Source of the DNA: an uncultured Halobacteriovorax sp.
GTDB taxonomy: Bacteria; Bdellovibrionota; Bacteriovoracia; Bacteriovoracales; Bacteriovoracaceae
Reading direction: 5' to 3'
Length of the DNA stretch: 64,000 bases
Assembly: GCA_964352405.1 (NCBI GenBank)
Contig: CAYGRY010000005.1
Coordinates: forward strand, 4,659 to 68,658
Within the stretch, counting starts at the first letter, position 1, and every line of letters begins with the position of its first letter. The notes beneath the pieces were generated by a model that saw only the letters and a list, made by a program, of their open reading frames with translations, was not told the DNA's origin and searched no databases. Positions 3,432 to 61,418 of this stretch are shown here, piece by piece. The translations under genes and the position numbers were made by a program.

Positions 3432-4970
3432 TTGAAAAAATACCTCAATCAATTTCATTTCTATCTCATCATTGTTTTGGGGGCTTATCTCTTCATAGAG
3501 ATTTATCAAACGGTTCTACCATTTAATCTTATGCATCTTCGCTATGGCGATGATTTAATGTTTCATAATTACTTGTCACAGTTATATGTGAATTTTAAGA
3601 AGCAAGGTATTGTCGACTTCATCTCATCATTGAAACCAGAGTATGCATACTCCTCTTTTTTCTGGATAATAAATTTCTTTTTTTATTATATGTTCTCATT
3701 TTTTCAGTCTGAAAGTATTATTACTTTAGTTCCTTTTATTATTTCACTTACTTTCTTTCTTTTATCCTTATTTAATATATTTAAAATTTACGAGCAATAC
3801 TTTAACAACCAACTGACTTCCCAAATAGCTTTGTTATTGTTTGTTATGTTGCCTATGTCGACACACTCAGCAGTAAGATTTCACAACTATAGCTTAACTC
3901 TTTATCTGAGCTCACTTTTGTTTTATTTAGTAAAGAAGTGGAATACATTAGACAATCGAAGAGTTATCTCTTTATCGCTACTTTGTTCAATGCTTATTTC
4001 GACAAAGCTTAACGGAGCTTTTATTGGGATTGCATGCTTAGGTTTAATATTCTCAAAAAAAGAGTTCTTAAAATGCTTTAATATGTCCAAAGCTCTTACT
4101 TTCTCTGTAATCTTTTTCATTTCATACTTATTATTTATGCAGCCTAATTTACTTTTTCACATTTTGACTTGGAACACTGATGTTGTGACGAGTTCAACCT
4201 TTGAATATATAAGAATGATTAAAGAGGCTTTAAGAGATAATAAGATAAACTACTTTTCAAACGTCTTATCACTAAAAGATCACTATTTATCATTATACTC
4301 ATTCCTTCTTTTTTCACTTGGGTATTTCATTTGGTTTATTAGAGTACAAAAAGAGAGGGTGGAAAGTTTCATGATCGTAGCATGCTTAGGCATTTTTTCT
4401 TCCTATATAGTTTTAGCTGGGCGAATTTGGCATAGTTCAACGTACCTCATTGGAATATCATTTTTATTACCTTTATCAATCAAGGGATTTGAACAAATCA
4501 AGCAAAGATTTATAAAAAATGGACTCTTTGCTATAGTAATATCATTCTCTTTATATCATTTTATCGATAGATATCACATTATGCATGCCAGAGATTTATA
4601 TATATCCAAAGGTTCCCCAAATTATCATTTACTAAAGGCTGATCAAGAGATTTTCCTAAGACTATTTCCTAAACCAGATAATTATCGATCAAGCTTGCGA
4701 ATTAACTGTTTTATTTATAGCTTTTGTCCATGGGTTCAACCTCTTTTACCAATGGACCTTTCTATTGTTTATGAGCCAAGTGAGGATTTCTTAAGAAATA
4801 GTGATTATATTTTTATTAATGATAAACGCTGGCCGGATCAAACAAAGTTTTATCTTGATCAATATGAATTTGAATTTATAGAGAATCTTCTATCTTCACT
4901 TAAAATTGGTGAAGATGAATATAATATGATTTATAAAAGTGAATATATAAAGGTTTTAAAGAAGAAATAA
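3432..4970 (+). CDS. polytopic membrane protein, possibly a GT-C-type glycosyltransferase (function uncertain)
   Basis: 512 aa with more than 10 hydrophobic segments and a GDD in the first predicted loop; very AT-rich with F/I/L/Y-rich codon usage; TTG start. Confidence 0.55.
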   Translation: MKKYLNQFHFYLIIVLGAYLFIEIYQTVLPFNLMHLRYGDDLMFHNYLSQLYVNFKKQGIVDFISSLKPEYAYSSFFWIINFFFYYMFSFFQSESIITLVPFIISLTFFLLSLFNIFKIYEQYFNNQLTSQIALLLFVMLPMSTHSAVRFHNYSLTLYLSSLLFYLVKKWNTLDNRRVISLSLLCSMLISTKLNGAFIGIACLGLIFSKKEFLKCFNMSKALTFSVIFFISYLLFMQPNLLFHILTWNTDVVTSSTFEYIRMIKEALRDNKINYFSNVLSLKDHYLSLYSFLLFSLGYFIWFIRVQKERVESFMIVACLGIFSSYIVLAGRIWHSSTYLIGISFLLPLSIKGFEQIKQRFIKNGLFAIVISFSLYHFIDRYHIMHARDLYISKGSPNYHLLKADQEIFLRLFPKPDNYRSSLRINCFIYSFCPWVQPLLPMDLSIVYEPSEDFLRNSDYIFINDKRWPDQTKFYLDQYEFEFIENLLSSLKIGEDEYNMIYKSEYIKVLKKK

Positions 4971-5031: not shown

Positions 5032-5865
5032 TTAGCCGATAAGCTTAAGAGCCGCTTGGCCTTGAGCATTCGACTGAGCAAGAACTGAAGAACCAGCATT
5101 AGTTAAGATGTTTAACTTAGTGTTCTTAGCAGTTTCTGAAGCATAGTCTGTATCACGGATACGAGAGTTTGCAGCAGACAAGTTCTCTGTAGAAACTTGC
5201 AAGTTACTTACTGTTGATGATAGACGGTTTTGCTTAGCACCTAGTTCAGCGCGCTGACCAGATACTTTTTGGATCGCTTCATCAAGAGTTTCAAGGCTAG
5301 ACTGAGCTCCTTCCTTAGAACTAACAGCGATGCCATCAACTCCTAAATTCCCGATTGAAGAATTTAGAACTGCTGTATCGAATTTAATTCTATCTTGGAA
5401 ATCATCATTATGAATTCCGATTTGGAAGTCATAAGACTCACCGTCACCGTTTAACAGTTTTTTACCGTTAAATTCAGTCACTTGTGAAATACGCTCAATT
5501 TCTTGTTTTAGGTTTTGATATTCAAGATCTGTAAAAGATCTCTCTTTATCACCTACAGTATCAGATGCTGACTGAACTGAAAGTTCTCTCATACGAATCA
5601 AGATATTACCTACTTCTTGCAAGCCACCTTCAGCGACTTGAATCATAGAAATACCGTCATTCGCATTTCGTTCAGCTTGTTGTAAACCGCGTACATTGGC
5701 CTTCAATTTCTCAGAAATTGCGAGACCCGCAGCATCGTCAGATGCTTTCGTAATTCTTGTACCAGATGACAACTTGTTCAGGGTACTAGCCTGTTCCATG
5801 TTGTTCTGGCCGAGAGTACGTTGAGCGGCTAGAGACGTAACGTTAGTGTTAATACGCAAACCCAT
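5032..5865 (-). CDS. fliC: flagellin
   Basis: N-terminus MGLRINTNVTSLAAQRTL and C-terminus NILTNAGSSVLAQSNAQGQAALKLIG are canonical flagellin; AGGAGG lies 6 nt upstream of the ATG at 5865; the longer ORF-track start at 5961 is rejected. Confidence 0.92.
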   Translation of the reverse strand: MGLRINTNVTSLAAQRTLGQNNMEQASTLNKLSSGTRITKASDDAAGLAISEKLKANVRGLQQAERNANDGISMIQVAEGGLQEVGNILIRMRELSVQSASDTVGDKERSFTDLEYQNLKQEIERISQVTEFNGKKLLNGDGESYDFQIGIHNDDFQDRIKFDTAVLNSSIGNLGVDGIAVSSKEGAQSSLETLDEAIQKVSGQRAELGAKQNRLSSTVSNLQVSTENLSAANSRIRDTDYASETAKNTKLNILTNAGSSVLAQSNAQGQAALKLIG

Positions 5866-5986
5866 TGGCTTCCTCCTTGGTTCTACTGTCCCTTCTGAGA
5901 CTAAATCCCCGCCTTGAGGACCAATGAGCATACTGCTCGAGTGGTTTTGTTTTTTGTTCACACTGTTGTGAACCTTTCAATGAATC

Positions 5987-6012
5987 TTCTCGGTGCAATT
6001 TTCTAAACATTA
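5987..6012 (-). promoter_or_regulatory. putative sigma-28 (FliA) promoter of flagellin
   Basis: Minus strand reads TAATGTTT-N10-ACCGAGAA, compared with consensus TAAAGTTT-N11-GCCGATAA; implies a 5' UTR of about 110 nt. Confidence 0.4.
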
Positions 6013-6091
6013 AGAAATATTTTCCTATTATTTCAATGTTTTAGACTGACAAAAACAGTCAGATACCAAAAATAAAACTTCCTATATAAGT

Positions 6092-6118
6092 TAAAAAGAG
6101 TCGCTATAAAGACGATAA
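6092..6118 (+). promoter_or_regulatory. putative sigma-28 (FliA) promoter of the 6125-10293 operon
   Basis: TAAAAAGA-N11-GACGATAA; the -10 box ends 6 nt before the ATG at 6125 and there is no Shine-Dalgarno sequence. Confidence 0.45.
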
Positions 6119-6124
6119 GAATGA

Positions 6125-8782
6125 ATGGACGGCGGTAAACCACTTATATTCATCAAACCTTATTCAAAGACTTTAGAAAAGCTTGTGGAGGTTTTAAAAG
6201 AATCTTCTGAAGATCAAGGTACAGAAATTTATGAAATTGAAGATGTAAAAGAAGCCATTCAGATTATTCCACAACTCGGCCAATCATTAATTATTGCTGC
6301 TCACCCTAGAAAAACAGCGCAAATACTTCAAGCAGCAGGGAAGCTCATAAGAAAAATTCAATCAAAAGTTCTTCTGCTAACTCCAAAGCCAATACCAAGA
6401 AAAACAATTGATAAGTTTATGAAGGTTGGTCTGACAGAGTGTATTATTGAGCCTATCGCACCTAAAACACTTCAATACAAAGTTAATCTTCTTCTAAGAT
6501 CTATTGTTATAAAAAAAGAAGAAAGTGATTACGAACAAAACTTTGATTCAAACAATGAATCAATCAGTGATGATGAGCTTGCTCGAAAACAACTCAGCGC
6601 CAATATAAAAGAAGAAGACAAAAAGGAAGAAGTTGATGGCAGTGACCTATATGCAACTGAGGATAAAGTTGAAAAGAAAAAATCGACCTATAAAGAAGAA
6701 GCAATTGCAGGATATTACAAAGGTGCTTCAAAAAAGAAAGAGAACGCCATTGATGAAGAAGATGATGATGATACAGATAAAAATAACAGCGAAATAATTG
6801 AAAGCTATTATAAAAACAAAGTCGCGAAACGAGAAGAAGATGTTGAGGAAGAGAGCGAAAAGAAGGCTAAGAAGAGAGAGCTAGAACCTGATGATTTTGA
6901 AGAACTTTCAAAGTCTGCCAGTCTGCTTTTAGAAGACGATGAAGTTGAAGATGAAGAAAAAGCTGTAAAGCAAGAAGTAGAAAAAGAGAAAAGAAACTCC
7001 CTTACTTTTTTAGAATTAGAAGAAGAAAAAAAGAAAAAGGAATCAAAGCCAAAAGCTGAAGACATTGATGAAGCAGATGATGTCGCTAGCCATCATCTAG
7101 ACCTAATCAATGATCTTGAAGATAAAAAAGAAGAAGAAACTTCAGAGCAAGAAAAAGCTATCTCAACAAAGAAGCCTACGACAGTTCTTAACCTTGAAGA
7201 AGAACAACTTGAGGATGAAGACGAAACTTTAAATCCTGAAAAAGAAGAAAAAACTAAGAAATCAAAAACTCTGCTCCAGCTTGAAGCTGAAGAGTTAAAG
7301 ACAGAGGAAGCGCCAAAACCCGAGTCAGATAAGAACAAAGAAAAGCGAAGTGATGCAAAAAAATTAAATCTTGAAGATGAAGAGTTGCCTGATGAAGGAC
7401 TTGAAGATGTTGCAGAACAATTAGATGCTTTAAACTTAGCATCTAAGACCATTTTAGAGCTTGAAACAGATGAAGAAGAAGCTAATGAAGATGCTTTTGA
7501 AGAAGACATTAAAAAAGATGAAAAGAAGAAAGCAGCAAAACTAGATCTAGAAGAAGATCTGAAACCTAAAAAAGAAAAAGATGAGATTTTAGAAGAAGAG
7601 CAAATCTACGGCAAGAAGAAATCTAAACAACTAGCCTTGGAAACAGAAGAAGATTTAGATTACGGCAAGAAAAAACGCGAAGAGAAGCAAAAGCATCAAG
7701 TCGAACGTGAAATTCAAGAACGAGATGAAAACAAGCGCAAAGCTGAGCGAGAAAACCAGGGATATACCGAACGGGAAATGAATAATAAAAGCTCTGGTTA
7801 TACAGAGAATATTCAAGATCAGGGTGGCAATAAGGCTGATGTTCATTCAGACAAGCTTAAAACTCACTATGATAGTCGTACAGGCTTAAAACACAATGAC
7901 GAAGAATGGCGCGAAGTTGAGCGAGAAAGACGTGCAGACGAAGAGTTTAAAGCTGAAAAGAAGAACGAATTTGCCATGCCTGAAAAAACAGACTGGGGTG
8001 AGCAGACGATTGACTACTCTGATCTCAAGAAACAATTCGAGGAAACTGGCTATAGCTTAGGTAGTAAAAAAGAAGTTGGTCAATTTGAAGATGGAGAATC
8101 ATCTAAATCTGGAATGAAGTACACACAAGCTGTTGGTGCAAGTCCTGTAGCTGAAGATGAAGTACTTGAAGAGATTGTTGAAGAAGCTAAAGAAGAGGAA
8201 GAGAACCAAATTTTTGAAGCTGACTTAAAATCGAGCATCACACTCATTAAGTCACTAAATATGTATTACCAGTATTCAAAAAATCGTGATGATACAGTTA
8301 AAGCTATCTTAGAGATGGTCAGAAATGATTTTGGAGCATTAGCAGCGATCAAATATGGCAAGGGCCCCAAAGATGGGAAACTAAAAATTGAAACAATAGG
8401 CAATTGGCTTGATGATGCTTCAAAAGATTCAATCATTAACACCTACACCGATGCAGCAAGTTGCCCAATTTTACCGAGCTATTCAGATAAAACGTTTGAA
8501 CAAAAAAGAACAATGTTCTTCTACCCTTTTACCGAGGGCATTACCACTTTTGCTTGGGTTCAATGTTTTCTTCCTAACGGGATCAAAGAAAATGAACTTA
8601 AGGGACTGGAAGCTTCTCTAGAGACAATGCGCGGAGCTCTACTAGACGAGTTTTATGAGCTTGGGGGAACTGGTCCTTATGCTGAGATCAAAAAGAAAAC
8701 AAAAGAGAAAGAACAATCATCTTCTGTTGCAAAGATTGGAAGCTTTTTTGGTGGCCTATTTGGCAAAAAGAAGGCGGGCTAA
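6125..8782 (+). CDS. pseudo-receiver domain protein with a long E/K/D-rich low-complexity centre and a globular C-terminal domain
   Basis: N-terminal 125 aa has receiver-like beta-alpha periodicity, but LIIAAHPRK replaces the acceptor-Asp strand and IIEPI replaces the conserved-Lys strand; residues about 130-700 are polyampholyte (KEE/EED runs); the last 190 aa are non-repetitive. Confidence 0.75.
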   Translation: MDGGKPLIFIKPYSKTLEKLVEVLKESSEDQGTEIYEIEDVKEAIQIIPQLGQSLIIAAHPRKTAQILQAAGKLIRKIQSKVLLLTPKPIPRKTIDKFMKVGLTECIIEPIAPKTLQYKVNLLLRSIVIKKEESDYEQNFDSNNESISDDELARKQLSANIKEEDKKEEVDGSDLYATEDKVEKKKSTYKEEAIAGYYKGASKKKENAIDEEDDDDTDKNNSEIIESYYKNKVAKREEDVEEESEKKAKKRELEPDDFEELSKSASLLLEDDEVEDEEKAVKQEVEKEKRNSLTFLELEEEKKKKESKPKAEDIDEADDVASHHLDLINDLEDKKEEETSEQEKAISTKKPTTVLNLEEEQLEDEDETLNPEKEEKTKKSKTLLQLEAEELKTEEAPKPESDKNKEKRSDAKKLNLEDEELPDEGLEDVAEQLDALNLASKTILELETDEEEANEDAFEEDIKKDEKKKAAKLDLEEDLKPKKEKDEILEEEQIYGKKKSKQLALETEEDLDYGKKKREEKQKHQVEREIQERDENKRKAERENQGYTEREMNNKSSGYTENIQDQGGNKADVHSDKLKTHYDSRTGLKHNDEEWREVERERRADEEFKAEKKNEFAMPEKTDWGEQTIDYSDLKKQFEETGYSLGSKKEVGQFEDGESSKSGMKYTQAVGASPVAEDEVLEEIVEEAKEEEENQIFEADLKSSITLIKSLNMYYQYSKNRDDTVKAILEMVRNDFGALAAIKYGKGPKDGKLKIETIGNWLDDASKDSIINTYTDAASCPILPSYSDKTFEQKRTMFFYPFTEGITTFAWVQCFLPNGIKENELKGLEASLETMRGALLDEFYELGGTGPYAEIKKKTKEKEQSSSVAKIGSFFGGLFGKKKAG

Positions 8783-9880
8783 GTGAATAATAATGATAAG
8801 CAATATTTCTTTGTTGATTTAGATCATCTTGGAGAGACTCAATTATTTCCTTTTCATATCCATATCTTTAATCCAGCAAATGGAAAGTATAATCCCTACC
8901 TTTTTGCAAATAGCCCACTAACATCTGCAAAAAAAGAATTATTAGTTGAAATTGTTTCTCGTGGTGGGAAAATAGCTATTCCAATGAAACAAAAACGCAC
9001 TTTTCTTGTTGAACAAGAGGTTAAAGAGGAAGATATTCCTGATTTAGCTCCACAAAAAGTTCATTCACTTGAAAAGCGAAGACAAGAACTTCTTGAAAAG
9101 AATAATGAAGTAACAGAAAATTCATCAGTTAAGGCAAAAAATAATACTGACAGTGAAACTAGTAATGAAGAAAAGTTCCATTTTAAAGAGCAGCTGGCCA
9201 ATGCCGCTTCAAGCAATGATTATTCAGGTCTTATTAATTTTGTAAGAGAAGAAGTTATAACCTTTAGCCCGCGTATATCGATGATGACGACAATGTCTTC
9301 CCTAATTGCAGAAACTGTTCTCTTTGATGATAATTTTACAAATAGAACTGTCGCCTTAAGCTTCCTTCTGGCAAAAGGTTGTGGCATTACCGATCCAGAA
9401 TCACTTGGTGACCTTGTCTGCGCAGCCTACTTTTTTCATTTAGGATATACGCAACTTCCACATTCCTGTATGAACAGAGCTCAAGTTGAGTATTCAGACT
9501 CAACAAAAAAAGAATGGAAAAAACATCCGGGGCTTAGTCTCCACTTATTAAGAAAAGCTCAAATTGAATTATCACCAAGAACAAGAATTATTATTGAGCA
9601 GCACCATGAGCGTTATGATGGTCAGGGCTTTCCTCAAATGAAAAAAGGTTCTCACATTGAGCCTTTGGCACTTGTATTAGGAGCAGCCTCACATATATTA
9701 GAATACACAAGCGGCAAAGTATCTGGCACTCCCACAACGCTTCCATCATTTATATTAAATCTTAAAAATAAAACTTATCTACCTGGTATGGAAGTGGAAT
9801 TTGGTGGTTTAATAGAAGAAAGTTTAGCTCATTTAGTAGACACAATGAATTCAACTGATCAAAATAAGAAAGTAGCCTAA
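8783..9880 (+). CDS. HD-GYP-like domain protein with degenerate metal-binding motifs
   Basis: EQHHERYDGQGFP matches the HHExxDGxGYP signature; the expected LHDIGK block reads FHLGYT; GTG start abuts the upstream stop. Confidence 0.75.
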   Translation: MNNNDKQYFFVDLDHLGETQLFPFHIHIFNPANGKYNPYLFANSPLTSAKKELLVEIVSRGGKIAIPMKQKRTFLVEQEVKEEDIPDLAPQKVHSLEKRRQELLEKNNEVTENSSVKAKNNTDSETSNEEKFHFKEQLANAASSNDYSGLINFVREEVITFSPRISMMTTMSSLIAETVLFDDNFTNRTVALSFLLAKGCGITDPESLGDLVCAAYFFHLGYTQLPHSCMNRAQVEYSDSTKKEWKKHPGLSLHLLRKAQIELSPRTRIIIEQHHERYDGQGFPQMKKGSHIEPLALVLGAASHILEYTSGKVSGTPTTLPSFILNLKNKTYLPGMEVEFGGLIEESLAHLVDTMNSTDQNKKVA

Positions 9881-9894
9881 ATCGGGGATATTTT

Positions 9895-10293
9895 ATGCCA
9901 TTAAAAGCCAGTATGAACATTCTGGTCATTGACACAAATTCGACTATGAGACAAAACGTAAAAAAACTTTTGTCTGATATTGGCTTTAAAAATATTAAAG
10001 AAGCGGCTAATGGCAAGAAAGCTCTAGAAGTCTTAGAAGAAAGTAATGTAATTGAGCAACCTATTGAGTTTATTATTTCCGAACTTGAGCTTGAAAAGAT
10101 GACTGCTATTGAGCTTCTTGTAACAATTAGAAAAGATCCTAAAAATGCTAAAACTAAGTTTTTGTTGATGACTGGTGATAGTGACCAGCAAAAAATGATG
10201 CAAGCAATTCGTGCTGGTGTTAACAATGTTGTAGTTAAACCTTTTTCAGCAGATATGCTAAAAGAGAAAATTGCAAAGATTTATGGTCAGTAG
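9895..10293 (+). CDS. CheY-like single-domain response regulator with acceptor Asp replaced by Glu
   Basis: Aligns by eye along the whole of E. coli CheY: VIDTNSTMR (DD to DT), FIISELELE (D57 to E), LLMTGDS (Thr kept), VVVKPF (Lys kept). Confidence 0.85.
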   Translation: MPLKASMNILVIDTNSTMRQNVKKLLSDIGFKNIKEAANGKKALEVLEESNVIEQPIEFIISELELEKMTAIELLVTIRKDPKNAKTKFLLMTGDSDQQKMMQAIRAGVNNVVVKPFSADMLKEKIAKIYGQ

Positions 10294-10302
10294 CATCTAC
10301 TG

Positions 10303-11466
10303 CTAGTTACCTTGATACTCTTCATAAGGATACTTGTTCACCCCTTCCCAGTTATTCAAAGCTAGCTCAAGATTGGCAAAAGGTGGAAGCCCTGGTTTTA
10401 CTTTCTCTTTTACATCAATCTGAGCATAAGTTAGCTGTCTAGATTCTCGTCCTCTGGCAAAATCAAGATGATACATATTAGTCCACGTGCCTGTATTGAT
10501 AAAGACCTTACCATCGGCATTACTTCTAAAAATAGGTTCGTGAGTATGGCCAACAATAAGGGCTTTAAGGTCTTCTCTTTTATGTAGCATCTCTTGAGTG
10601 ATTTCTTCGTAGTCTTGAAATAGGTGAAGTTCGTTAACAGCGTAAGCGACCGCATTCTTAATACTTTTGTTTTGTCTAAACAAGAAATTAAATCTAACCA
10701 TGATAAAATAATAACAAGTCTGAAATAAAAATCTTAAAATGAATAAAGTATCGTAAATGAGACCATTGATAATAAACTTTTTAATCGGTCTAACAGCGTT
10801 GATATGACCACGCTCTTCTTTAAACTTATTAATGACACGAATAACGTAATAAGAGCCCCAAGGAGGAATAAAATGTTTAATTCCTTTTCCATCTTCAAAA
10901 ACTGAAGCCTTAGGATCGAATTGGTGAGCAATTTCATATTCATGACCATGTTTAATCGCTACTCCGGCCACTGGCATATATTCTTGAGTATTGTCCGTAA
11001 TAATTCGAACTTTCTCACGATCTTTTTCTTCAAAGCATTCTAAAAATCGCTGTTGTAAGCTTTCAAGAATCATTTCTGCATCATGATTACCGATAATATA
11101 AACGATCGTTTTTTTCTTACCAGCTGCAAAATCACTTAAAGCCTGCATCACTTCTCTGTGAGCTTTTAACATCATCTCTAGCTTCGCTAAAGCCGCTGGC
11201 TCACTCCAATACTCATCATCGTAAAAGGGAACAAAGGGAACTGCGAGATGATCAAAAAAATCACCATTAATAACTAATTCAACTTCTCTTTCTTTATATT
11301 CACCGCTGCAATAGTAATGTAGAAACTCCACCATCTGCTCATCGTAATGAAAGTCTTCTAAATAATTGCGCTGGCCCTTCACAATAGCACCGGCTCCCAG
11401 ATGAATATCCGAGATCACAATAATCGTTTTCTTAATGGGATGCTTACCTCTGCGGAGGAATCTCAT
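10303..11466 (-). CDS. calcineurin-like metallophosphoesterase with a hydrophobic segment
   Basis: Motifs VISDIHLG, INGDFFDH, IGNHD, KHGHE, VGHTHEP; the ATG at 11466 with GAAGG upstream is preferred over the TTG at 11481. Confidence 0.8.
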   Translation of the reverse strand: MRFLRRGKHPIKKTIIVISDIHLGAGAIVKGQRNYLEDFHYDEQMVEFLHYYCSGEYKEREVELVINGDFFDHLAVPFVPFYDDEYWSEPAALAKLEMMLKAHREVMQALSDFAAGKKKTIVYIIGNHDAEMILESLQQRFLECFEEKDREKVRIITDNTQEYMPVAGVAIKHGHEYEIAHQFDPKASVFEDGKGIKHFIPPWGSYYVIRVINKFKEERGHINAVRPIKKFIINGLIYDTLFILRFLFQTCYYFIMVRFNFLFRQNKSIKNAVAYAVNELHLFQDYEEITQEMLHKREDLKALIVGHTHEPIFRSNADGKVFINTGTWTNMYHLDFARGRESRQLTYAQIDVKEKVKPGLPPFANLELALNNWEGVNKYPYEEYQGN

Positions 11467-11809
11467 ATGGCCTTCTTCCAAATTCTAATTGAACTTCTTG
11501 AAATGATGGAGACAAAGGTATCAGTGTAGCGCTCTCGCCTTTTTTAAGCTCAAGATCAACAGAGACAAAGGCTCCAGGTTTAATGCTGAATGAAGTTACT
11601 TTACGCTGCTCTTGACCTGCTCTAATTTCACCATAGATTGTCACTAATGTTTTATTTTGCAAGGTCATATTGGTTCCTTGCTTCCAACCAATAGGACCAA
11701 CGACTTTAAAATGATCATCATTGGCGGTAACAACAAAAGACTCTGAGCTCTCCATGGAGAAAACTGAGTTAAAACCGAGCAAAAATGTCAGAAAGATTAA
11801 TTTCCTCAT
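11444..11809 (-). CDS. small secreted hypothetical protein
   Basis: 121 aa with N-terminal signal peptide MRKLIFLTFLLGFNSVFS; overlaps the downstream gene. Confidence 0.55.
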   Translation of the reverse strand: MRKLIFLTFLLGFNSVFSMESSESFVVTANDDHFKVVGPIGWKQGTNMTLQNKTLVTIYGEIRAGQEQRKVTSFSIKPGAFVSVDLELKKGESATLIPLSPSFQEVQLEFGRRPYEIPPQR

Positions 11810-36842: not shown

Positions 36843-36869
36843 TCAAGTTTTAAAGCAAAGAGCCGATAA
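36843..36869 (+). promoter_or_regulatory. sigma-28 (FliA)-type promoter, best consensus match in the window
   Basis: TCAAGTTT-N11-GCCGATAA (7/8 plus 8/8 against TAAAGTTT-N11-GCCGATAA), 32 nt upstream of the ATG at 36902. Confidence 0.55.
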
Positions 36870-36901
36870 AGAAATATCATTGATTACGGGTGAGGTTAGC
36901 C

Positions 36902-37279
36902 ATGTCTAATTTGGTCAAAAATTTTGTTACTTCATGTACTTTAACGTTTAAAGCGTTTGAGCATGAAGTGATTATTTCGAAGAACCAAAGTACGATGTGG
37001 AACTTTATGGCCGTCAATAAAAGACGCGATAAGGTCTACGCTGTTTACTGTGCTCCAAGACTTAACTCTGCCAAAGCACTTATTAAAGTTGCGCTTAAAA
37101 AAGTCCCTGCCGATACAAGACTCGTTGTTGTAACTTCCTCATATACAGATGAAGAATATGAACAAGCCAACAAAGATGGTTACTCTTTAGTAACGCTCTC
37201 GATGCTATCTAAGTACGGAACGGAAATGTTAGAGATTAAGCAAAAAGAAGAAGCTAACTCACTTTCAAAAGCCGCCTAA
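36902..37279 (+). CDS. hypothetical cytoplasmic protein
   Basis: 125 aa; GGTGAGG lies 6 nt upstream of the ATG at 36902, preferred over the GTG at 36890. Confidence 0.6.
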   Translation: MSNLVKNFVTSCTLTFKAFEHEVIISKNQSTMWNFMAVNKRRDKVYAVYCAPRLNSAKALIKVALKKVPADTRLVVVTSSYTDEEYEQANKDGYSLVTLSMLSKYGTEMLEIKQKEEANSLSKAA

Positions 37280-59130: not shown

Positions 59131-59814
59131 TTAACCGTTAAATCTTAAACGATATCCAACGCCGCGCACCGTTTCGATAAGATCATCTCTTGTTTTTTGG
59201 CGTAGTTGAAGCACATGGGTATCAACAGTTCTAGTGGTTGGGTAGTGCTCATATCCCCAGACTTTATTTAAAATTTCATCACGAGAAAAGGCGCGATTTG
59301 GATGCTCTGCTAATAATGTAATGAAATCAAATTCCATCTTCGTCATCTCTACAGCTTTACCACCAAAGAAAACTTCACGTTGATTTTTATCAATCATCAG
59401 TTCTGCTACTTCAACTTTACCATCACTTTCTTTTTCACCGCCGCCACTGGCATTTGATAAACGGAGTTGCGCTCTTATTCTAGCGACAAGTTCACGTGGC
59501 TCAAATGGTTTCGTGACATAGTCATTGGCACCACTTTCAAGCCCGATCACTTTATCGATCAGTTCTGTTCTAGCGGTTAACATAATAACAGGAATAGCAT
59601 TAGTTTTTGCTCTTACTTCTTTTAGGTAATCAACGCCCTGACCATCTGGTAGCATCCAATCAAGAATCATAAGATCGTAATCATCGATTTTCTTTGTTCT
59701 CGCCTCTTCTAGATTTTTGGCAAGGTCGACTTGGTATCCTTCATCCTGAATAAACTTTTTAAGTGACGTTCCAAGATTCTCGTCATCTTCTAAAAGCATG
59801 ATTTTTTCACTCAT
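59131..59814 (-). CDS. OmpR-family DNA-binding response regulator (canonical acceptor Asp)
   Basis: LLEDD, LMILDWMLPDG, MLTA and KPF motifs, winged-helix C-terminus VGYRL; GAGGAG lies 6 nt upstream of the ATG at 59814. Confidence 0.9.
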   Translation of the reverse strand: MSEKIMLLEDDENLGTSLKKFIQDEGYQVDLAKNLEEARTKKIDDYDLMILDWMLPDGQGVDYLKEVRAKTNAIPVIMLTARTELIDKVIGLESGANDYVTKPFEPRELVARIRAQLRLSNASGGGEKESDGKVEVAELMIDKNQREVFFGGKAVEMTKMEFDFITLLAEHPNRAFSRDEILNKVWGYEHYPTTRTVDTHVLQLRQKTRDDLIETVRGVGYRLRFNG

Positions 59815-59828
59815 CCTATTCTCCTCGA

Positions 59829-61418
59829 TCAAGCCTGAACTGATTTCAAATCCAAAGCTATGGTAAATGTCGTTGGTTTTTTACTTAAGATTAACTCGCC
59901 TTTCATTTCATCGATGACTTTTCTAACAATATTTAAGCCAAGACCAGAGCCTTGCGACTTAGTTCCTTTAACAAACTCGCTGGTCAGATGATCTAAAGTA
60001 ATATCATCCGCTAACTCGCCTTTATCACTTATTTCTAGGGAAAGTTTTTTCTCATTTAAAGAAACGTTAACCTGAACCGGAAATACACCATGAAAACACG
60101 CGTTCTCGATGAGATTCTTTAAACAGATTCCTAGCCAATAGGTATCTATTTTGGCGGCAATATCATTGGGTAACAGATTGATAATAAGATTTTCTTCGCC
60201 GTACATTTCAATATAGGTATCTGCAATTTGCATGACAAAATCATTAATAGACTCACAGCCTTCATTTTTAAGTTCGATCAAATTATTGCTGTTTTTAACT
60301 TTAAGATAGTTTCTCGACATTTCAGTTAAACGCTGTAAACGGTAAACATCAGCAGAGAGTCTTAAAATATCATCTTGCTCGTCTTCCTGGAATTTATGTA
60401 GGCGCTTAGAAAGACTTTCAATAATTAAAAGCATGGAAGCAATTGGAGTTCTAAATTCATGAGAGAGAACTTTTAAAGCCAGACGTCTTCTTTCATCTTC
60501 TTGTCGATCACTTTTAAGACGACCAATTAAAGAGAAAATAAGACTTCCAACAACGGCTAAAAGTCCTAAGAAAAAGACTACTGTTGATTTATTAGCAATA
60601 CTAAAAATATGGCGAAAACTATAATTCCAACACAACTCTCCATCGCGGTAAAAACAGCTTCGACCTTCCTTATAATTTTGTAATGTATAAGAAGAATCTT
60701 TTAAGAATTCTTCCAGCGCATCCCTAGCATAAATTCTGTACTCTAAAATACTCAGCATGCGCGGATATTTTAATCTGGCAAAAAGGTAGTCATTGGTGAG
60801 TACGGTTCCTACACCTTGAATAATACCTGTGAGTGTTTTCTCATCGAGATTGGCCAAGATACTAAAGACTCCACCAAGCTCTCCTACTTCCCTTCTAACA
60901 GAATGAAGCTCTTTAACGTGAAAATATTGAAGATGAGATAAAACCCAAGACTTAGCTTGAAAACCTCTGGCCGAAGAAAAAGCTAGGTAAGCGTAACTAA
61001 AACCAGATGGATGAACATAAGGAGGTTCGACAAAAAACCCTCTGGGAAGACTCGTTCGTTTATTACATCTAAATTCTTCCCAAATAAGAATCTTTTCATA
61101 GTTGGCGGCATTGACGACCGTTTTTAAATTTTTAAAACAGCCTTCATCTGAGCTATAGCGGATATCGGTATCAGTTCCCGATTCAGGAATTGAAAATAAT
61201 GGATTTAATAATTGAAATTGATCTCTTGAAAAGTACAAACTATTAAAGTTTACAATCGATAGAGGCTTAACCTTGTATTGAAAGTCATTCTTGAGATCGT
61301 TAATTTCTAAAATATCACCTTGGGAGGCGGTAAAAGGACGCTGTAGTAACAAAGAAACATAGCCCGTCGCAAAAGCCATGGTTACAACGGTAAATATTAG
61401 AATCAAGTTAAGACGCAT
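59829..61418 (-). CDS. sensor histidine kinase with a large periplasmic domain
   Basis: Two TM segments flank a roughly 250-aa domain; H-box LSHEFRTPIASM, N-box NLIENACFH, G-box GSGLGLNIV. Confidence 0.85.
   Translation of the reverse strand: MRLNLILIFTVVTMAFATGYVSLLLQRPFTASQGDILEINDLKNDFQYKVKPLSIVNFNSLYFSRDQFQLLNPLFSIPESGTDTDIRYSSDEGCFKNLKTVVNAANYEKILIWEEFRCNKRTSLPRGFFVEPPYVHPSGFSYAYLAFSSARGFQAKSWVLSHLQYFHVKELHSVRREVGELGGVFSILANLDEKTLTGIIQGVGTVLTNDYLFARLKYPRMLSILEYRIYARDALEEFLKDSSYTLQNYKEGRSCFYRDGELCWNYSFRHIFSIANKSTVVFFLGLLAVVGSLIFSLIGRLKSDRQEDERRRLALKVLSHEFRTPIASMLLIIESLSKRLHKFQEDEQDDILRLSADVYRLQRLTEMSRNYLKVKNSNNLIELKNEGCESINDFVMQIADTYIEMYGEENLIINLLPNDIAAKIDTYWLGICLKNLIENACFHGVFPVQVNVSLNEKKLSLEISDKGELADDITLDHLTSEFVKGTKSQGSGLGLNIVRKVIDEMKGELILSKKPTTFTIALDLKSVQA

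What the first reader, a model, noticed from the sequence alone, without database searches (positions are those of the whole stretch)
6092..10293. Flagellin-adjacent operon encoding three degenerate signalling proteins: candidate undescribed motility or second-messenger module
Seen: three same-strand ORFs are packed tightly (stop 8782 and GTG 8783 abut; there is a 14-nt gap before 9895) and diverge from the flagellin gene. Each has a recognisable signalling fold with its key residues substituted. The first is a receiver-like N-domain reading LIIAAHPRK at the acceptor strand and IIEPI where the conserved Lys sits. The second is an HD-GYP domain that keeps HHERYDGQGFP but reads FHLGYT where LHDIGK is expected. 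The third is a CheY homologue with the acceptor Asp changed to Glu. A TAAAAAGA-N11-GACGATAA element ends 6 nt before the first ATG. Inference: a phosphorylation-independent, possibly c-di-GMP-sensing adaptor set co-expressed with the filament. I do not recognise this three-gene composition as a described system, but I cannot search.
Basis: partly seen in the sequence, partly recalled or inferred. Interest (0 to 1): 0.78.

Follow-up and report, generated by a model that had tools for sequence, protein, structure and literature searches.

The report
Flagellin-linked operon of three pseudo-signalling proteins
Next to the flagellin gene of a Halobacteriovorax-like predatory bacterium lies a conserved, uncharacterised operon whose three signalling-type proteins have all lost their catalytic or phospho-acceptor residues; relatives show that its CheY degenerated exactly where its two partner genes were lost.

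Summary
ORF1 (6125-8782), ORF2 (8783-9880) and ORF3 (9895-10293) are tightly packed and diverge from a flagellin gene.

- **ORF1:**
- **ORF2:** a degenerate HD-GYP. The correct register is FFHLGY = LHDIGK, so HD becomes F-H. Four of the eight PmGH metal-ligand positions and the c-di-GMP-specific Lys are replaced across the family.
- **ORF3:** a CheY with D13T and D57E, under purifying selection.

The gene set is conserved in about 40 Bacteriovoracaceae loci, always beside flagellin. A sigma-28-type promoter usually ends 6-11 nt before the ORF1 ATG, with no Shine-Dalgarno sequence, so the mRNA is probably leaderless.

The three-gene form is derived. All 17 loci that also encode a His-less CheA-P1-like protein and CheX have a canonical CheY. 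All 15 without them have a degenerate CheY, and two have none.

c-di-GMP sensing is not supported. I read this as a new variant of known kinds (pseudo-receivers, inactive HD-GYPs) containing an undescribed ORF1 family. Its function is inferred only. Interest is moderate.

The parts
5032..5865 (-). Flagellin gene. The ORF as listed runs to 5961; the conserved start MGLRINTN with an AGGAGG Shine-Dalgarno sequence is at about 5865.
   Evidence: Flagellin_N E=3.7e-40 and Flagellin_C E=8.5e-22. It is divergently adjacent to ORF1 in every locus where upstream DNA is available.
5986..6014 (-). Sigma-28-type promoter of the flagellin gene (TAATGTTT-N10-ACCGAGAA on the - strand), followed by a conserved ~125-nt 5' UTR (5866-5985).
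   Evidence: Alignment of eight loci: CCGA is invariant, TAAAGTTT is exact in L087, and the conserved block AGCAGTAtGCTcATTGG lies in the UTR.
6092..6118 (+). Sigma-28-type promoter of the operon: TAAAAAGA (-35), 11 nt, GACGATAA (-10). It ends 6 nt before the ATG and no Shine-Dalgarno sequence is present, so a leaderless or near-leaderless mRNA is inferred.
   Evidence: Exact and unique in the window. A [N]NCGA[TA][AT][AG] element at the same place occurs in 8 of 11 first loci, with the ACGAAAAG variant in the other three. It ends 6-11 nt before the ATG in 22 of 29 further loci, with near variants in the rest. The TSS was not mapped.
6125..6508 (+). ORF1 aa 1-128: pseudo-receiver domain. DD->K-P, acceptor Asp->Ala (Ser in most relatives), Thr kept, Lys->Glu.
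   Evidence: AF2 pLDDT 92.7 with (beta-alpha)5 topology. Top 50 Foldseek hits are all receivers. Profile vs the YycF receiver gives E=0.0017. The family has 247 clusters at E<=1e-10; all but a few shifted or N-truncated proteins carry the domain at the N-terminus, and most are about 850-1150 aa long. dN/dS is <=0.1.
6509..8209 (+). ORF1 aa 129-695: acidic disordered linker (32% D+E, 18.5% K+R, net charge -78). It carries eight 'LxLE' motifs at about 30-aa spacing (aa 267-510, nt 6923-7654) and a conserved GEQTIDY motif (aa 625-631, nt 7997-8017).
   Evidence: Composition and motif count: 8 observed vs 0.3-1.0 expected, 0 of 2000 shuffles reach 8. Motif spacing peaks at 29-31 aa and its multiples across the family. 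The region is variable in alignment and has low pLDDT.
8210..8674 (+). ORF1 aa ~696-850: GAF-like domain.
   Evidence: AF2 core pLDDT >90. Foldseek PDB hits are CodY GAF, Nlh1/2 GAF, 3cit GAF, PDE and phytochrome GAFs, with E 1e-4 to 6e-3 and TM (target-normalised) up to 0.65. No Pfam hit.
8733..8779 (+). ORF1 C-terminal tail KIGSFFGGLFGKKKAG, conserved as FFGxLFGKKA in the family. It may be a membrane-targeting tail.
   Evidence: Conserved in 64 homologues. One relative has a weak FtsA_C hit, E=0.018. The resemblance to the MinD tail is from memory. The hydrophobic moment is not significant, so this is a hypothesis only.
8783..9277 (+). ORF2 aa 1-165: conserved N-terminal domain of unknown fold (FPFH[LI]..NP, ANSPLT, GG..AI..QKRTFL).
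   Evidence: Invariant or near-invariant columns in 33 sequences. No Pfam hit (including DUF3391) or PDB sequence hit.
9278..9880 (+). ORF2 aa 166-365: degenerate HD-GYP domain. H248, H274, H275, E276, R277, D279, G280, G282 and P284 are kept. Replaced positions: first His (F185), HD (F218-H219), last Asp (S303), GYP Tyr (F283), RxY[KR] Lys (G315).
   Evidence: HD_5 57 bits. Alignments to 3tm8, 4mcw and 5z7c. Column statistics over 90 family members. Residue roles from the HD-GYP survey.
9895..10293 (+). ORF3: CheY-type pseudo-receiver with D13T, D57E, WNMP->LELE, A88G and Y/F106V; T87 and K109 are kept.
   Evidence: Response_reg 68 bits. Alignments. pN 0.07-0.22 against saturated pS 0.72-0.85.
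10303..11481 (-). Convergent calcineurin-like phosphoesterase gene. It is a conserved neighbour; membership of the system is not shown.
   Evidence: Metallophos E=1e-8. Present downstream in nearly all loci.

Best explanation
This is a late-flagellar-class (sigma-28-type promoter) operon conserved in Bacteriovoracaceae/Halobacteriovorax-like bacteria. It encodes a signalling and adaptor module built from pseudo-enzymes.

**Core pair.** ORF1 and ORF2 are always present and translationally coupled.
- ORF1 is a ~900-aa scaffold: an N-terminal pseudo-receiver, a long acidic repeat-bearing disordered linker, a GAF-like putative ligand-binding domain and a conserved basic-hydrophobic tail.
- ORF2 is an HD-GYP-fold protein whose canonical metal centre is dismantled, but which keeps the HHExxDGxG[YF]P loop and has its own invariant His/Glu/Asn set. 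It most likely acts by binding a partner or ligand, not by hydrolysing c-di-GMP.

**CheY paralogue as add-on.**
- In most lineages the CheY is canonical. It comes with two CheY-directed proteins: a CheA-P1-like protein with the phospho-His replaced by Asp and a CheZ-like C-terminal peptide, and the phosphatase CheX. The module is then coupled to CheY phosphorylation.
- In the window's lineage both partners were lost. The CheY became a constitutive, phosphorylation-independent form (D13T, D57E, aromatic switch residue lost) that is still under selection.

**Shown:** folds, residue states, synteny, the correlation between partner loss and CheY degeneration, purifying selection, and conservation of the promoter motif.

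**Inferred:** sigma-28 dependence and leaderless translation, loss of ORF2 catalysis, physical interaction among the three proteins, and a role in motility.
For: - **Folds and residues:**
- **Family-wide conservation of the degenerate ORF2 site:** N187, H219, G221, H248, H274, H275 and G300 are invariant or nearly so in 90 sequences.
- **Synteny:** flagellin(-)|ORF1|ORF2|CheY(|P1-like|CheX) in 13 loci and 30 more. ORF1 stop and ORF2 start overlap or abut.
- **Correlation:** 17/17 loci with P1-like+CheX have a canonical CheY quintet. 15/15 without them carry quintet substitutions. Two loci have no CheY.
- **Independent transitions:** the partner-less loci fall in three separate groups on an NJ tree of ORF2, consistent with several independent losses.
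- **Selection:** CheY* pN is 0.07-0.22 against saturated pS, so dN/dS is about <=0.1.
- **Partner proteins in relatives:** the P1-like protein matches T. maritima CheA P1 at E=2.9e-6, with the phospho-His aligned to an invariant Asp. CheX scores 74.7 bits.
- **Promoter:**
- **Literature:** Glu at the acceptor position is the commonest state in pseudo-receivers and can mimic phosphorylation (PMC12632262). The GYP region is a surface-exposed partner-binding loop (PMC3188283). PA2572, a degenerate YN-GYP, is inactive but still influences swarming (PMC3774798).
Against: - There are no expression data. The promoter is a motif match, and the region's gene order is conserved well beyond the operon (thiolase, aldehyde dehydrogenase, UvrB, ornithine decarboxylase). 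Flagellin adjacency alone could therefore be inherited synteny.
- ORF2 keeps three metal-ligand His residues and gains invariant H219, H254, H304 and E307. A remodelled metal site with some catalytic activity cannot be excluded.
- As far as I recall, D57E in E. coli CheY itself is not activating.
- The membrane-tail idea failed a hydrophobic-moment test.
Confidence: 0.55

Rival explanations
1. c-di-GMP (or cGAMP) receptor module. ORF2 is an inactive HD-GYP that still binds the cyclic dinucleotide and passes the signal to ORF1 and CheY* to control the motor.
For: [quoted passage not shown] ORF2 keeps HHExxDGxG[YF]P and three metal His residues.
Against: In PmGH the phosphates are held by the metal ions, and four of the eight metal-ligand positions are replaced here. 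The Gua1-specific RxY[K/R] Lys is Gly in 84 of 90 relatives, and KPG is KPQ in the family and RAQ in the window. No PilZ domain, I-site or Arg-rich extension is encoded in the operon.
Confidence: 0.15
2. ORF2 is an active hydrolase with a remodelled (mononuclear or His-rich) metal site acting on a different substrate. The operon would then be an enzymatic signalling unit rather than a set of adaptors.
For: Invariant H219 (in place of the HD Asp), H248, H254, H274, H275, H304, E307 and N187 could form a new metal site. The HD superfamily includes hydratases, oxygenases and lyases.
Against: No HD-domain enzyme lacking the HD dyad has been characterised, as far as I know. PA2572, which has YN in place of HD, is inactive.
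Confidence: 0.15
3. Flagellin adjacency is coincidental. The genes form a polarity or predation-related scaffold (a RomR-like receiver + disordered region + C-terminal domain hub) unrelated to the flagellum, and the CGATAA motif is not a sigma-28 promoter.
For: Gene order is conserved over more than 15 kb around the operon. The ORF1 architecture (receiver-like domain + long disordered region + C-terminal domain) resembles polar hub proteins such as RomR (from memory; the Bdellovibrio hub paper PMC11025332 was read).
Against: The motif sits at a fixed distance from the ATG in about 40 otherwise diverged intergenic regions and has TAAA at the consensus spacing in the loci examined. In L003 it moves with the first gene of the operon. 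The accessory genes are chemotaxis-type (CheY, CheA-P1-like, CheX).
Confidence: 0.15

Closest known systems
RpfG-type REC-HD-GYP response regulators (Xanthomonas RpfG; Pseudomonas PA4108/PA4781)
   Same: A receiver-fold module is paired with an HD-GYP-fold module. The HHExxDGxGYP loop is conserved; in RpfG it mediates binding to GGDEF partners and controls motility.
   Different: Here the receiver-like domain (ORF1) and the HD-GYP domain (ORF2) are on separate polypeptides. The receiver lacks DD, D and K. The HD dyad and two further metal ligands are replaced. ORF1 also carries a 570-aa disordered linker and a GAF-like domain.
PA2572 (Pseudomonas aeruginosa YN-GYP protein) and Bd1817 (Bdellovibrio, PDB 3TM8)
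   Same: They are naturally degenerate or unconventional HD-GYP proteins. PA2572 has YN instead of HD, is inactive on c-di-GMP and still influences swarming (PMC3774798). Bd1817 lacks the GYP Tyr (PMC3188283) and is the best single-sequence PDB hit of ORF2.
   Different: ORF2 is only about 25-30 bits from either. It has [ASCF]-H instead of HD, lacks a REC or DUF3391 N-domain, and forms its own clade of about 90 clusters restricted to Bacteriovoracaceae-like genomes.
Aspartate-less / pseudo-receiver domains (ALR, PsR; e.g. FrzS, plant PRRs, Rim15p)
   Same: ORF1-N and ORF3 have the receiver fold without a complete catalytic quintet. ORF3 has Glu at the acceptor position, the commonest state in PsRs and a frequent phosphomimetic (PMC12632262, PMC4395418).
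   Different: ORF3 is a single-domain CheY paralogue. Its degeneration can be traced among close relatives and coincides with loss of its CheX and P1-like partners. ORF1-N is too diverged for Pfam Response_reg (E=0.14).
CheY / CheX / CheZ / CheA-P1 chemotaxis components
   Same: In the five-gene relatives the CheY is 38-45% identical to E. coli CheY, with an identical SDWNMP motif. CheX is a bona fide Pfam CheX. The third protein has the CheA P1 four-helix fold signature and a CheZ-like C-terminal peptide.
   Different: The P1-like protein has Asp instead of the phospho-His. None of these genes lies in a che cluster. The window keeps only the degenerate CheY.
RomR-type polar hub proteins (receiver + disordered linker + C-terminal domain)
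   Same: The overall layout is shared: an N-terminal receiver fold, a long low-complexity linker and a conserved C-terminal module.
   Different: No sequence similarity was detected (no NCBIfam or Pfam hit). The linker is acidic and Lys-rich rather than Pro-rich, and the C-terminal domain is GAF-like. This is a resemblance from memory, not a test.

Membership tests
Phosphorylatable response-regulator receiver (CheY-type), for ORF3 | Receiver fold / Pfam Response_reg above the gathering score | tested here: met
   68.4 bits against a cut-off of 30.2.
Phosphorylatable response-regulator receiver (CheY-type), for ORF3 | Acidic pair DD (CheY D12, D13) for Mg2+ binding | tested here: not met
   D-T in the window and D-[TS] in its clade.
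Phosphorylatable response-regulator receiver (CheY-type), for ORF3 | Phospho-acceptor Asp (CheY D57) | tested here: not met
   Glu. The following WNMP motif is replaced by LELE.
Phosphorylatable response-regulator receiver (CheY-type), for ORF3 | Conserved Thr/Ser (T87) and Lys (K109) | tested here: met
   T and K are present. The aromatic switch residue Y106 is Val.
CheY equivalog (NCBIfam NF007901), for ORF3 | Score above the curated cut-off | tested here: not met
   87.7 bits against a cut-off of 189.
HD-GYP c-di-GMP phosphodiesterase, for ORF2 | HD-GYP-type domain recognised by profile | tested here: met
   HD_5 57 bits against a cut-off of 27.2. The profile hits PmGH (E=2e-10), V-cGAP3 and Bd1817.
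HD-GYP c-di-GMP phosphodiesterase, for ORF2 | HD dyad (PmGH H221, D222) | tested here: not met
   F218-H219 in the window and [ASCHF]-H in 87 of 90 relatives.
HD-GYP c-di-GMP phosphodiesterase, for ORF2 | Other metal ligands (first His; H250; H276/H277; last Asp) | tested here: not met
   H248, H274 and H275 are kept. The first His is F185 and the last Asp is S303. Ligand numbering beyond E185 and the HD dyad is from memory of the PmGH paper.
HD-GYP c-di-GMP phosphodiesterase, for ORF2 | GYP motif with Tyr | tested here: inconclusive
   GFP in the window. The family has Y in 59 and F in 28 of 90.
HD-GYP c-di-GMP phosphodiesterase, for ORF2 | c-di-GMP contacts KPG and RxY[K/R] | tested here: not met
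   RAQ in the window (KPQ in the family). [KR]x[TNS]G with Gly in 84 of 90. The RxY[K/R] columns rest on the MAFFT alignment only.
HD-GYP c-di-GMP phosphodiesterase, for ORF2 | Hydrolysis of c-di-GMP | not testable with these tools
   Needs an enzyme assay.
Pseudo-receiver (PsR/ALR), for ORF1 aa 1-128 | Receiver fold | tested here: met
   AF2 pLDDT 92.7. The top 50 Foldseek hits are all receivers, with TM 0.6-0.7.
Pseudo-receiver (PsR/ALR), for ORF1 aa 1-128 | One or more catalytic quintet residues missing | tested here: met
   DD->K-P, D->A/S and K->E from the profile alignment to the YycF receiver and the family alignment.
GAF domain, for ORF1 aa ~696-850 | GAF fold | tested here: met
   Foldseek hits are almost exclusively GAF domains, with E 1e-4 to 6e-3 and core pLDDT >90. 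TM is modest (0.4-0.65).
GAF domain, for ORF1 aa ~696-850 | Sequence-profile membership (Pfam GAF families) | tested here: not met
   No GAF hit in any of 26 members at E<=1.
Sigma-28 (FliA) dependent promoter | TAAA(GTTT)-N11-GCCGATAA consensus at a conserved position | tested here: met
   TAAAAAGA-N11-GACGATAA in the window. The -10-like element is found in about 40 loci, including variants and three set further upstream.
Sigma-28 (FliA) dependent promoter | FliA-dependent transcription start | not testable with these tools
   Needs 5'-RACE or dRNA-seq and a fliA mutant.
RpfG family (REC fused to HD-GYP) | REC and HD-GYP in one polypeptide | tested here: not met
   They are separate, abutting genes. 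Only L003 carries an extra fused REC-HD-GYP gene upstream.

The most novel reading that the evidence does not exclude
ORF1 and ORF2 are the core of a previously undescribed flagellum-associated control system of predatory Bacteriovoracaceae. ORF1 would be a membrane- or pole-anchored protein whose ~30-aa LxLE repeats act as multivalent docking sites, for example for CheY, since acidic Leu-rich peptides bind CheY in FliM and CheZ. Its GAF-like domain would sense a small molecule. The remodelled HD-GYP would be a receptor for an unknown ligand. Lineages such as the window's would then have hard-wired the CheY input into a constitutive phosphomimetic form, all expressed from a leaderless sigma-28 transcript.
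Probability: 0.15. Interest if true: 0.8.

Novelty: new variant of a known kind. Interest (0 to 1): 0.55.

Why it matters
**An uncharacterised family.** The pseudo-receiver of ORF1 defines 247 sequence clusters (50% identity, E<=1e-10). They have a fixed and unusual architecture (pseudo-receiver, long acidic repeat linker, GAF-like domain) and no annotation anywhere. ORF1 is always coupled to a distinctive dead-looking HD-GYP and to the flagellin locus of predatory bacteria, whose motility control is poorly understood.

**A natural experiment on pseudo-receivers.** Among close relatives, a canonical CheY sits next to a phosphatase and a P1-like protein. Wherever those two genes are gone, the CheY has lost its Mg2+ ligand, its acceptor Asp or its Lys, often with Asp->Glu arising apparently more than once, yet it stays under purifying selection. 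This gives matched protein pairs for testing what makes a pseudo-receiver constitutively active, a question the field calls open (PMC12632262).

**A testable transcript prediction.** The sigma-28 promoter abutting the start codon predicts a leaderless late-flagellar mRNA. This is easy to test.

Tried and rejected
- **Viral contigs:** a scan for ORF2 relatives found nothing.
- **Genome-contig scan with the ORF2 profile:** the generic HHERxDGxGY pattern swamped it. Only four true family loci were recovered among 80. The metagenome scan with the ORF1 N-domain profile worked better.
- **ORF2 N-terminal domain:** Pfam (including DUF3391) gave no hit in any of 33 members, and there was no PDB sequence hit. 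The fold is unassigned.
- **'Hpt' gene of relatives as phosphodonor:** rejected, because the phospho-His position is an invariant Asp.
- **Same protein as a CheZ homologue:** only two short local matches, the C-terminal peptide (E=0.043) and GQVI[KD]R[MI]M (E=0.14). The CheA-P1 match is stronger, so I keep only 'CheZ-like C-terminal peptide'.
- **Amphipathic membrane-targeting helix in the ORF1 tail:** the hydrophobic moment is no better than in shuffles.
- **Rfam scan of 5700-10500:** nothing credible.
- **Sigma-70 promoter and terminator scan:** no enrichment and no internal + strand terminator.
- **DNA tandem-repeat search in the linker:** only short low-complexity arrays, so the 30-aa periodicity is visible at protein level only.
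- **Hpt or CheX elsewhere in the window:** none by tblastn.

Full report
**1. What is in the sequence**

The window has 38.6% G+C. It carries a flagellin gene on the minus strand: the ORF runs 5032-5961, with the conserved start near 5865, and matches Flagellin_N at E=4e-40.

Three ORFs diverge from it on the plus strand:
- ORF1, 6125-8782, 885 aa
- ORF2, 8783-9880, 365 aa
- ORF3, 9895-10293, 132 aa

The ORF1 stop (TAA, 8780-8782) abuts the ORF2 GTG start. Fourteen nt with a GGGGA ribosome-binding site separate ORF2 from ORF3. A convergent calcineurin-like phosphoesterase gene starts 9 nt after ORF3.

**2. ORF1**

Neither Pfam nor NCBIfam recognises any part of ORF1.

*N-terminal pseudo-receiver.*
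- A profile of the first 134 residues, built from 33 homologues, hits the YycF/WalR receiver (E=0.0017), ArcA and other receivers.
- AlphaFold2 gives a (beta-alpha)5 model at pLDDT 92.7. All 50 best Foldseek PDB matches are receiver domains.
- In the profile alignment the acceptor Asp aligns with Ala (Ser in most relatives). The beta4 Thr is kept, and the beta5 Lys is Glu.
- The DD pair is K-P by position in the family alignment.
- This is a pseudo-receiver too diverged for Pfam (Response_reg E=0.14). Its best-conserved stretch is beta5-alpha5 (GLTEC..EP..PKTL.YKV).

*Disordered linker.* Residues 129-695 are 32% Asp+Glu and 18.5% Lys+Arg, with a net charge of -78.
- The linker holds eight copies of a basic stretch followed by LxLE and acidic residues, spaced 29-30 aa apart, with one double spacing of 59 aa.
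- Shuffles give 0.3-1.0 copies, and none of 2000 reaches eight.
- Across the family the spacing again peaks at 29-31 aa and its multiples, although copy number varies.

*C-terminal region.*
- A GEQTIDY motif (aa 625-631) is conserved, as are a ~150-aa domain and the tail FFGxLFGKKA.
- The domain models with core pLDDT >90. It matches GAF domains (CodY, Nlh1/2, 3cit, PDE and phytochrome GAFs) at Foldseek E from 1e-4. No Pfam GAF model hits it.
- The tail resembles MinD and FtsA membrane-targeting tails (from memory; one weak FtsA_C hit). Its hydrophobic moment is not significant.

*Family size.* An exhaustive profile search finds 247 representative clusters at E<=1e-10. Most are 850-1150 aa long, the shorter ones being likely fragments. 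All but a few shifted or N-truncated proteins carry the domain at the N-terminus. Every database name is 'hypothetical protein', from Halobacteriovorax, Bacteriovorax, Bacteriovoracaceae or Oligoflexia.

**3. ORF2**

HD_5 scores 57 bits. The best single-sequence PDB hit is Bd1817 of Bdellovibrio. With the family profile the best hit is PmGH (E=2e-10), followed by V-cGAP3 and Bd1817.

All of these alignments, and a MAFFT alignment with canonical REC-HD-GYP proteins, place FFHLGY opposite LHDIGK. The HD His is therefore Phe218 (Ala, Ser or Cys in relatives). The HD Asp is His219, found in 87 of 90 relatives.

| Position | State in ORF2 |
|---|---|
| First metal His | F185 (replaced) |
| HD dyad | F218-H219 (replaced) |
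| Last metal Asp | S303 (replaced) |
| H248, H274, H275, E276, R277, D279, G280, G282, P284 | kept |
| GYP Tyr | Phe in the window; Tyr in 59 and Phe in 28 of 90 relatives |
| RxY[K/R] | [KR]x[TNS]G, Gly in 84 of 90 |
| KPG | RAQ in the window |

Residue roles are taken from the HD-GYP survey (bioRxiv 10.1101/2021.11.05.467447).

The family has its own invariant set: N187, R188, H219, G221, T223, Q224, H254, G300, H304 and E307. This is a conserved, remodelled site, not random decay.

About 94 full-length clusters (32-100% identity) form a sharply bounded family. Scores then drop from 189 to 45 bits for generic HD-GYPs. The N-terminal 165 residues are conserved but match nothing.

**4. ORF3**

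ORF3 is a clear receiver (68 bits) and CheY-like, but it scores below the CheY equivalog cut-off. Relative to E. coli CheY:
- D12 is kept and D13 is Thr.
- D57 is Glu, and W58-N59-M60-P61 reads LELE.
- T87 is kept and A88 is Gly.
- Y106 is Val, and K109 is kept.

**5. Comparative genomics**

Exact-protein look-ups and two collection scans gave 43 related loci. Wherever upstream DNA is present, flagellin lies divergently next to ORF1. ORF1 and ORF2 are always adjacent, with overlapping or abutting stop and start codons.

*Five-gene form.* Seventeen loci continue with CheY, a 165-177-aa protein and CheX (74.7 bits).
- The middle protein passes the Pfam Hpt threshold (27.1 bits). Its profile matches the CheA P1 domain of Thermotoga (E=2.9e-6).
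- The phospho-His position is an invariant Asp.
- Its C-terminus (QxSIDxLMxSLGL) resembles the CheY-binding peptide of CheZ (the CheZ sequence is from memory).

*Correlation with CheY state.*
- In all 17 five-gene loci the CheY is canonical: DD, D57 within SDWNMP, T87-A88, F106 and K109.
- Fifteen loci have CheY but neither partner. Every one has at least one quintet substitution.
- In those fifteen, D13 is replaced in 14, D57 is Glu in 11 and Asn in 1, and K109 is Arg in 6.
- All fifteen also have A88->G/S and F106->V/I/L.
- Two loci lack CheY altogether.
- A sixteenth partner-less locus (L095) is truncated after CheY and was not counted.

*Tree and selection.*
- A rough NJ tree of ORF2 places the window's clade and a sister clade inside the canonical groups. 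At least two further deep lineages are degenerate or CheY-less.
- D57E appears in separate sub-clades.
- Within the window's clade, CheY* has pN of 0.07-0.22 against saturated pS of 0.72-0.85.
- It is therefore a maintained protein, not a pseudogene.

**6. Promoters**

- The element TAAAAAGA-N11-GACGATAA (6092-6118) matches the enterobacterial sigma-28 consensus TAAAGTTT-N11-GCCGATAA (consensus from memory). It is the only exact TAAA-N17-CGATAA match in the window.
- The -10-like element recurs at the same place in 8 of 11 first loci. A variant, ACGAAAAG, occupies that place in the other three.
- In 22 of 29 further loci it ends 6-11 nt before the ATG. Four others carry near variants at a similar distance, and three carry the element about 23-25 nt upstream.
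- TAAA lies about 19-20 nt upstream of the -10-like element in the loci I examined by eye.
- In L003 an extra REC-HD-GYP gene precedes ORF1. There the element sits before that first gene, followed by a normal Shine-Dalgarno leader.
- No Shine-Dalgarno sequence fits between the element and the ORF1 ATG. The conserved N-terminus (M..KPLIF) fixes the start codon.
- I therefore infer a leaderless or near-leaderless sigma-28 transcript. This inference rests on typical -10-to-TSS spacing and needs TSS mapping.
- The flagellin gene has its own sigma-28-type promoter on the other strand (TAAAGTTT exact in L087; CCGA invariant) and a conserved ~125-nt leader.

**7. Interpretation**

The window's three genes are a reduced form of a lineage-wide module.
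- The invariant core is ORF1+ORF2.
- The CheY branch is accessory. It exists in a phosphorylation-coupled state with P1-like and CheX partners, or in a phosphorylation-independent state as in the window.
- Pseudo-receivers with Glu at the acceptor are common, and Glu can mimic phosphorylation (PMC12632262, PMC4395418).
- Degenerate HD-GYPs are known: PA2572 has YN-GYP, is inactive and still influences swarming (PMC3774798).
- The GYP region is a surface-exposed partner-binding loop (PMC3188283).

I therefore favour a non-catalytic adaptor and sensor module expressed with late flagellar genes. c-di-GMP sensing is not supported by residue conservation but is not excluded. A remodelled active site in ORF2 is a live alternative.

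No paper describing the operon or the ORF1 family was found.

**8. Verdict**

The system is a new variant of known kinds and contains an undescribed protein family. The comparative pattern of CheY degeneration is clean. Interest is moderate (0.55). The function and the physical links among the proteins remain inferred.

Noticed in passing
window 5866-5985 (- strand); same region in L001, L003, L004, L008, L087, L088, L090: The flagellin 5' UTR (~125 nt) is strongly conserved. It has an invariant AGCAGTAtGCTcATTGG block forming a small hairpin and several A(N)GGA-type motifs (CAAGG, GGGGA, AGGGA, AAGGAGG at the Shine-Dalgarno sequence). This is reminiscent of CsrA/FliW control of flagellin translation. 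No Rfam family matched.
   Followed up: partly
L005:9499-10008, L001:11469-11972 and 15 other loci (gene absent from the window): This is a CheA-P1/Hpt-like protein whose phospho-accepting His is an invariant Asp. Its C-terminus (QxSIDxLMxSLGL) resembles the CheY-binding peptide of CheZ. It is always followed by CheX. It may be an undescribed CheY-P-binding or phosphatase-adaptor protein.
   Followed up: partly
L091:12068-14207 and L092, against window 10293-10303: Relatives 99% identical in the ORF1 N-domain carry a 2-kb insertion between CheY* and the phosphoesterase gene. It encodes a ~160-aa secreted Cys-rich protein (also present in L087) and a 527-aa multi-pass membrane protein. In the window the two flanking genes are only 9 nt apart.
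   Followed up: partly
window 36843-36869 (+), upstream of ORF 36890-37279: This is a second good sigma-28-like element, TCAAGTTT-N11-GCCGATAA, with an exact -10. It lies 20 nt upstream of a 129-aa ORF of unknown function, a possible further late-flagellar-class gene.
   Followed up: no
L003:3346-4797: One deep lineage has an extra REC-HD-GYP gene (HD_5 73 bits, HD 33 bits, weak Response_reg) inserted between the promoter and ORF1, and it has no CheY. This suggests that a fused REC-HD-GYP can take part in the same operon.
   Followed up: partly
window 3432-4970 (+): A 512-aa multi-pass membrane protein with no Pfam hit lies between the aldehyde dehydrogenase and flagellin genes. Relatives have other genes at this position (trypsin-like protease, MCP, SBP_bac_3), so this flank is variable.
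   Followed up: no
window 59476-59805 (- strand): There is a second receiver-domain match (27% identity to the canonical CheY seed, tblastn E=5e-12) within ORF 59131-59832. It is unrelated to the operon.
   Followed up: no
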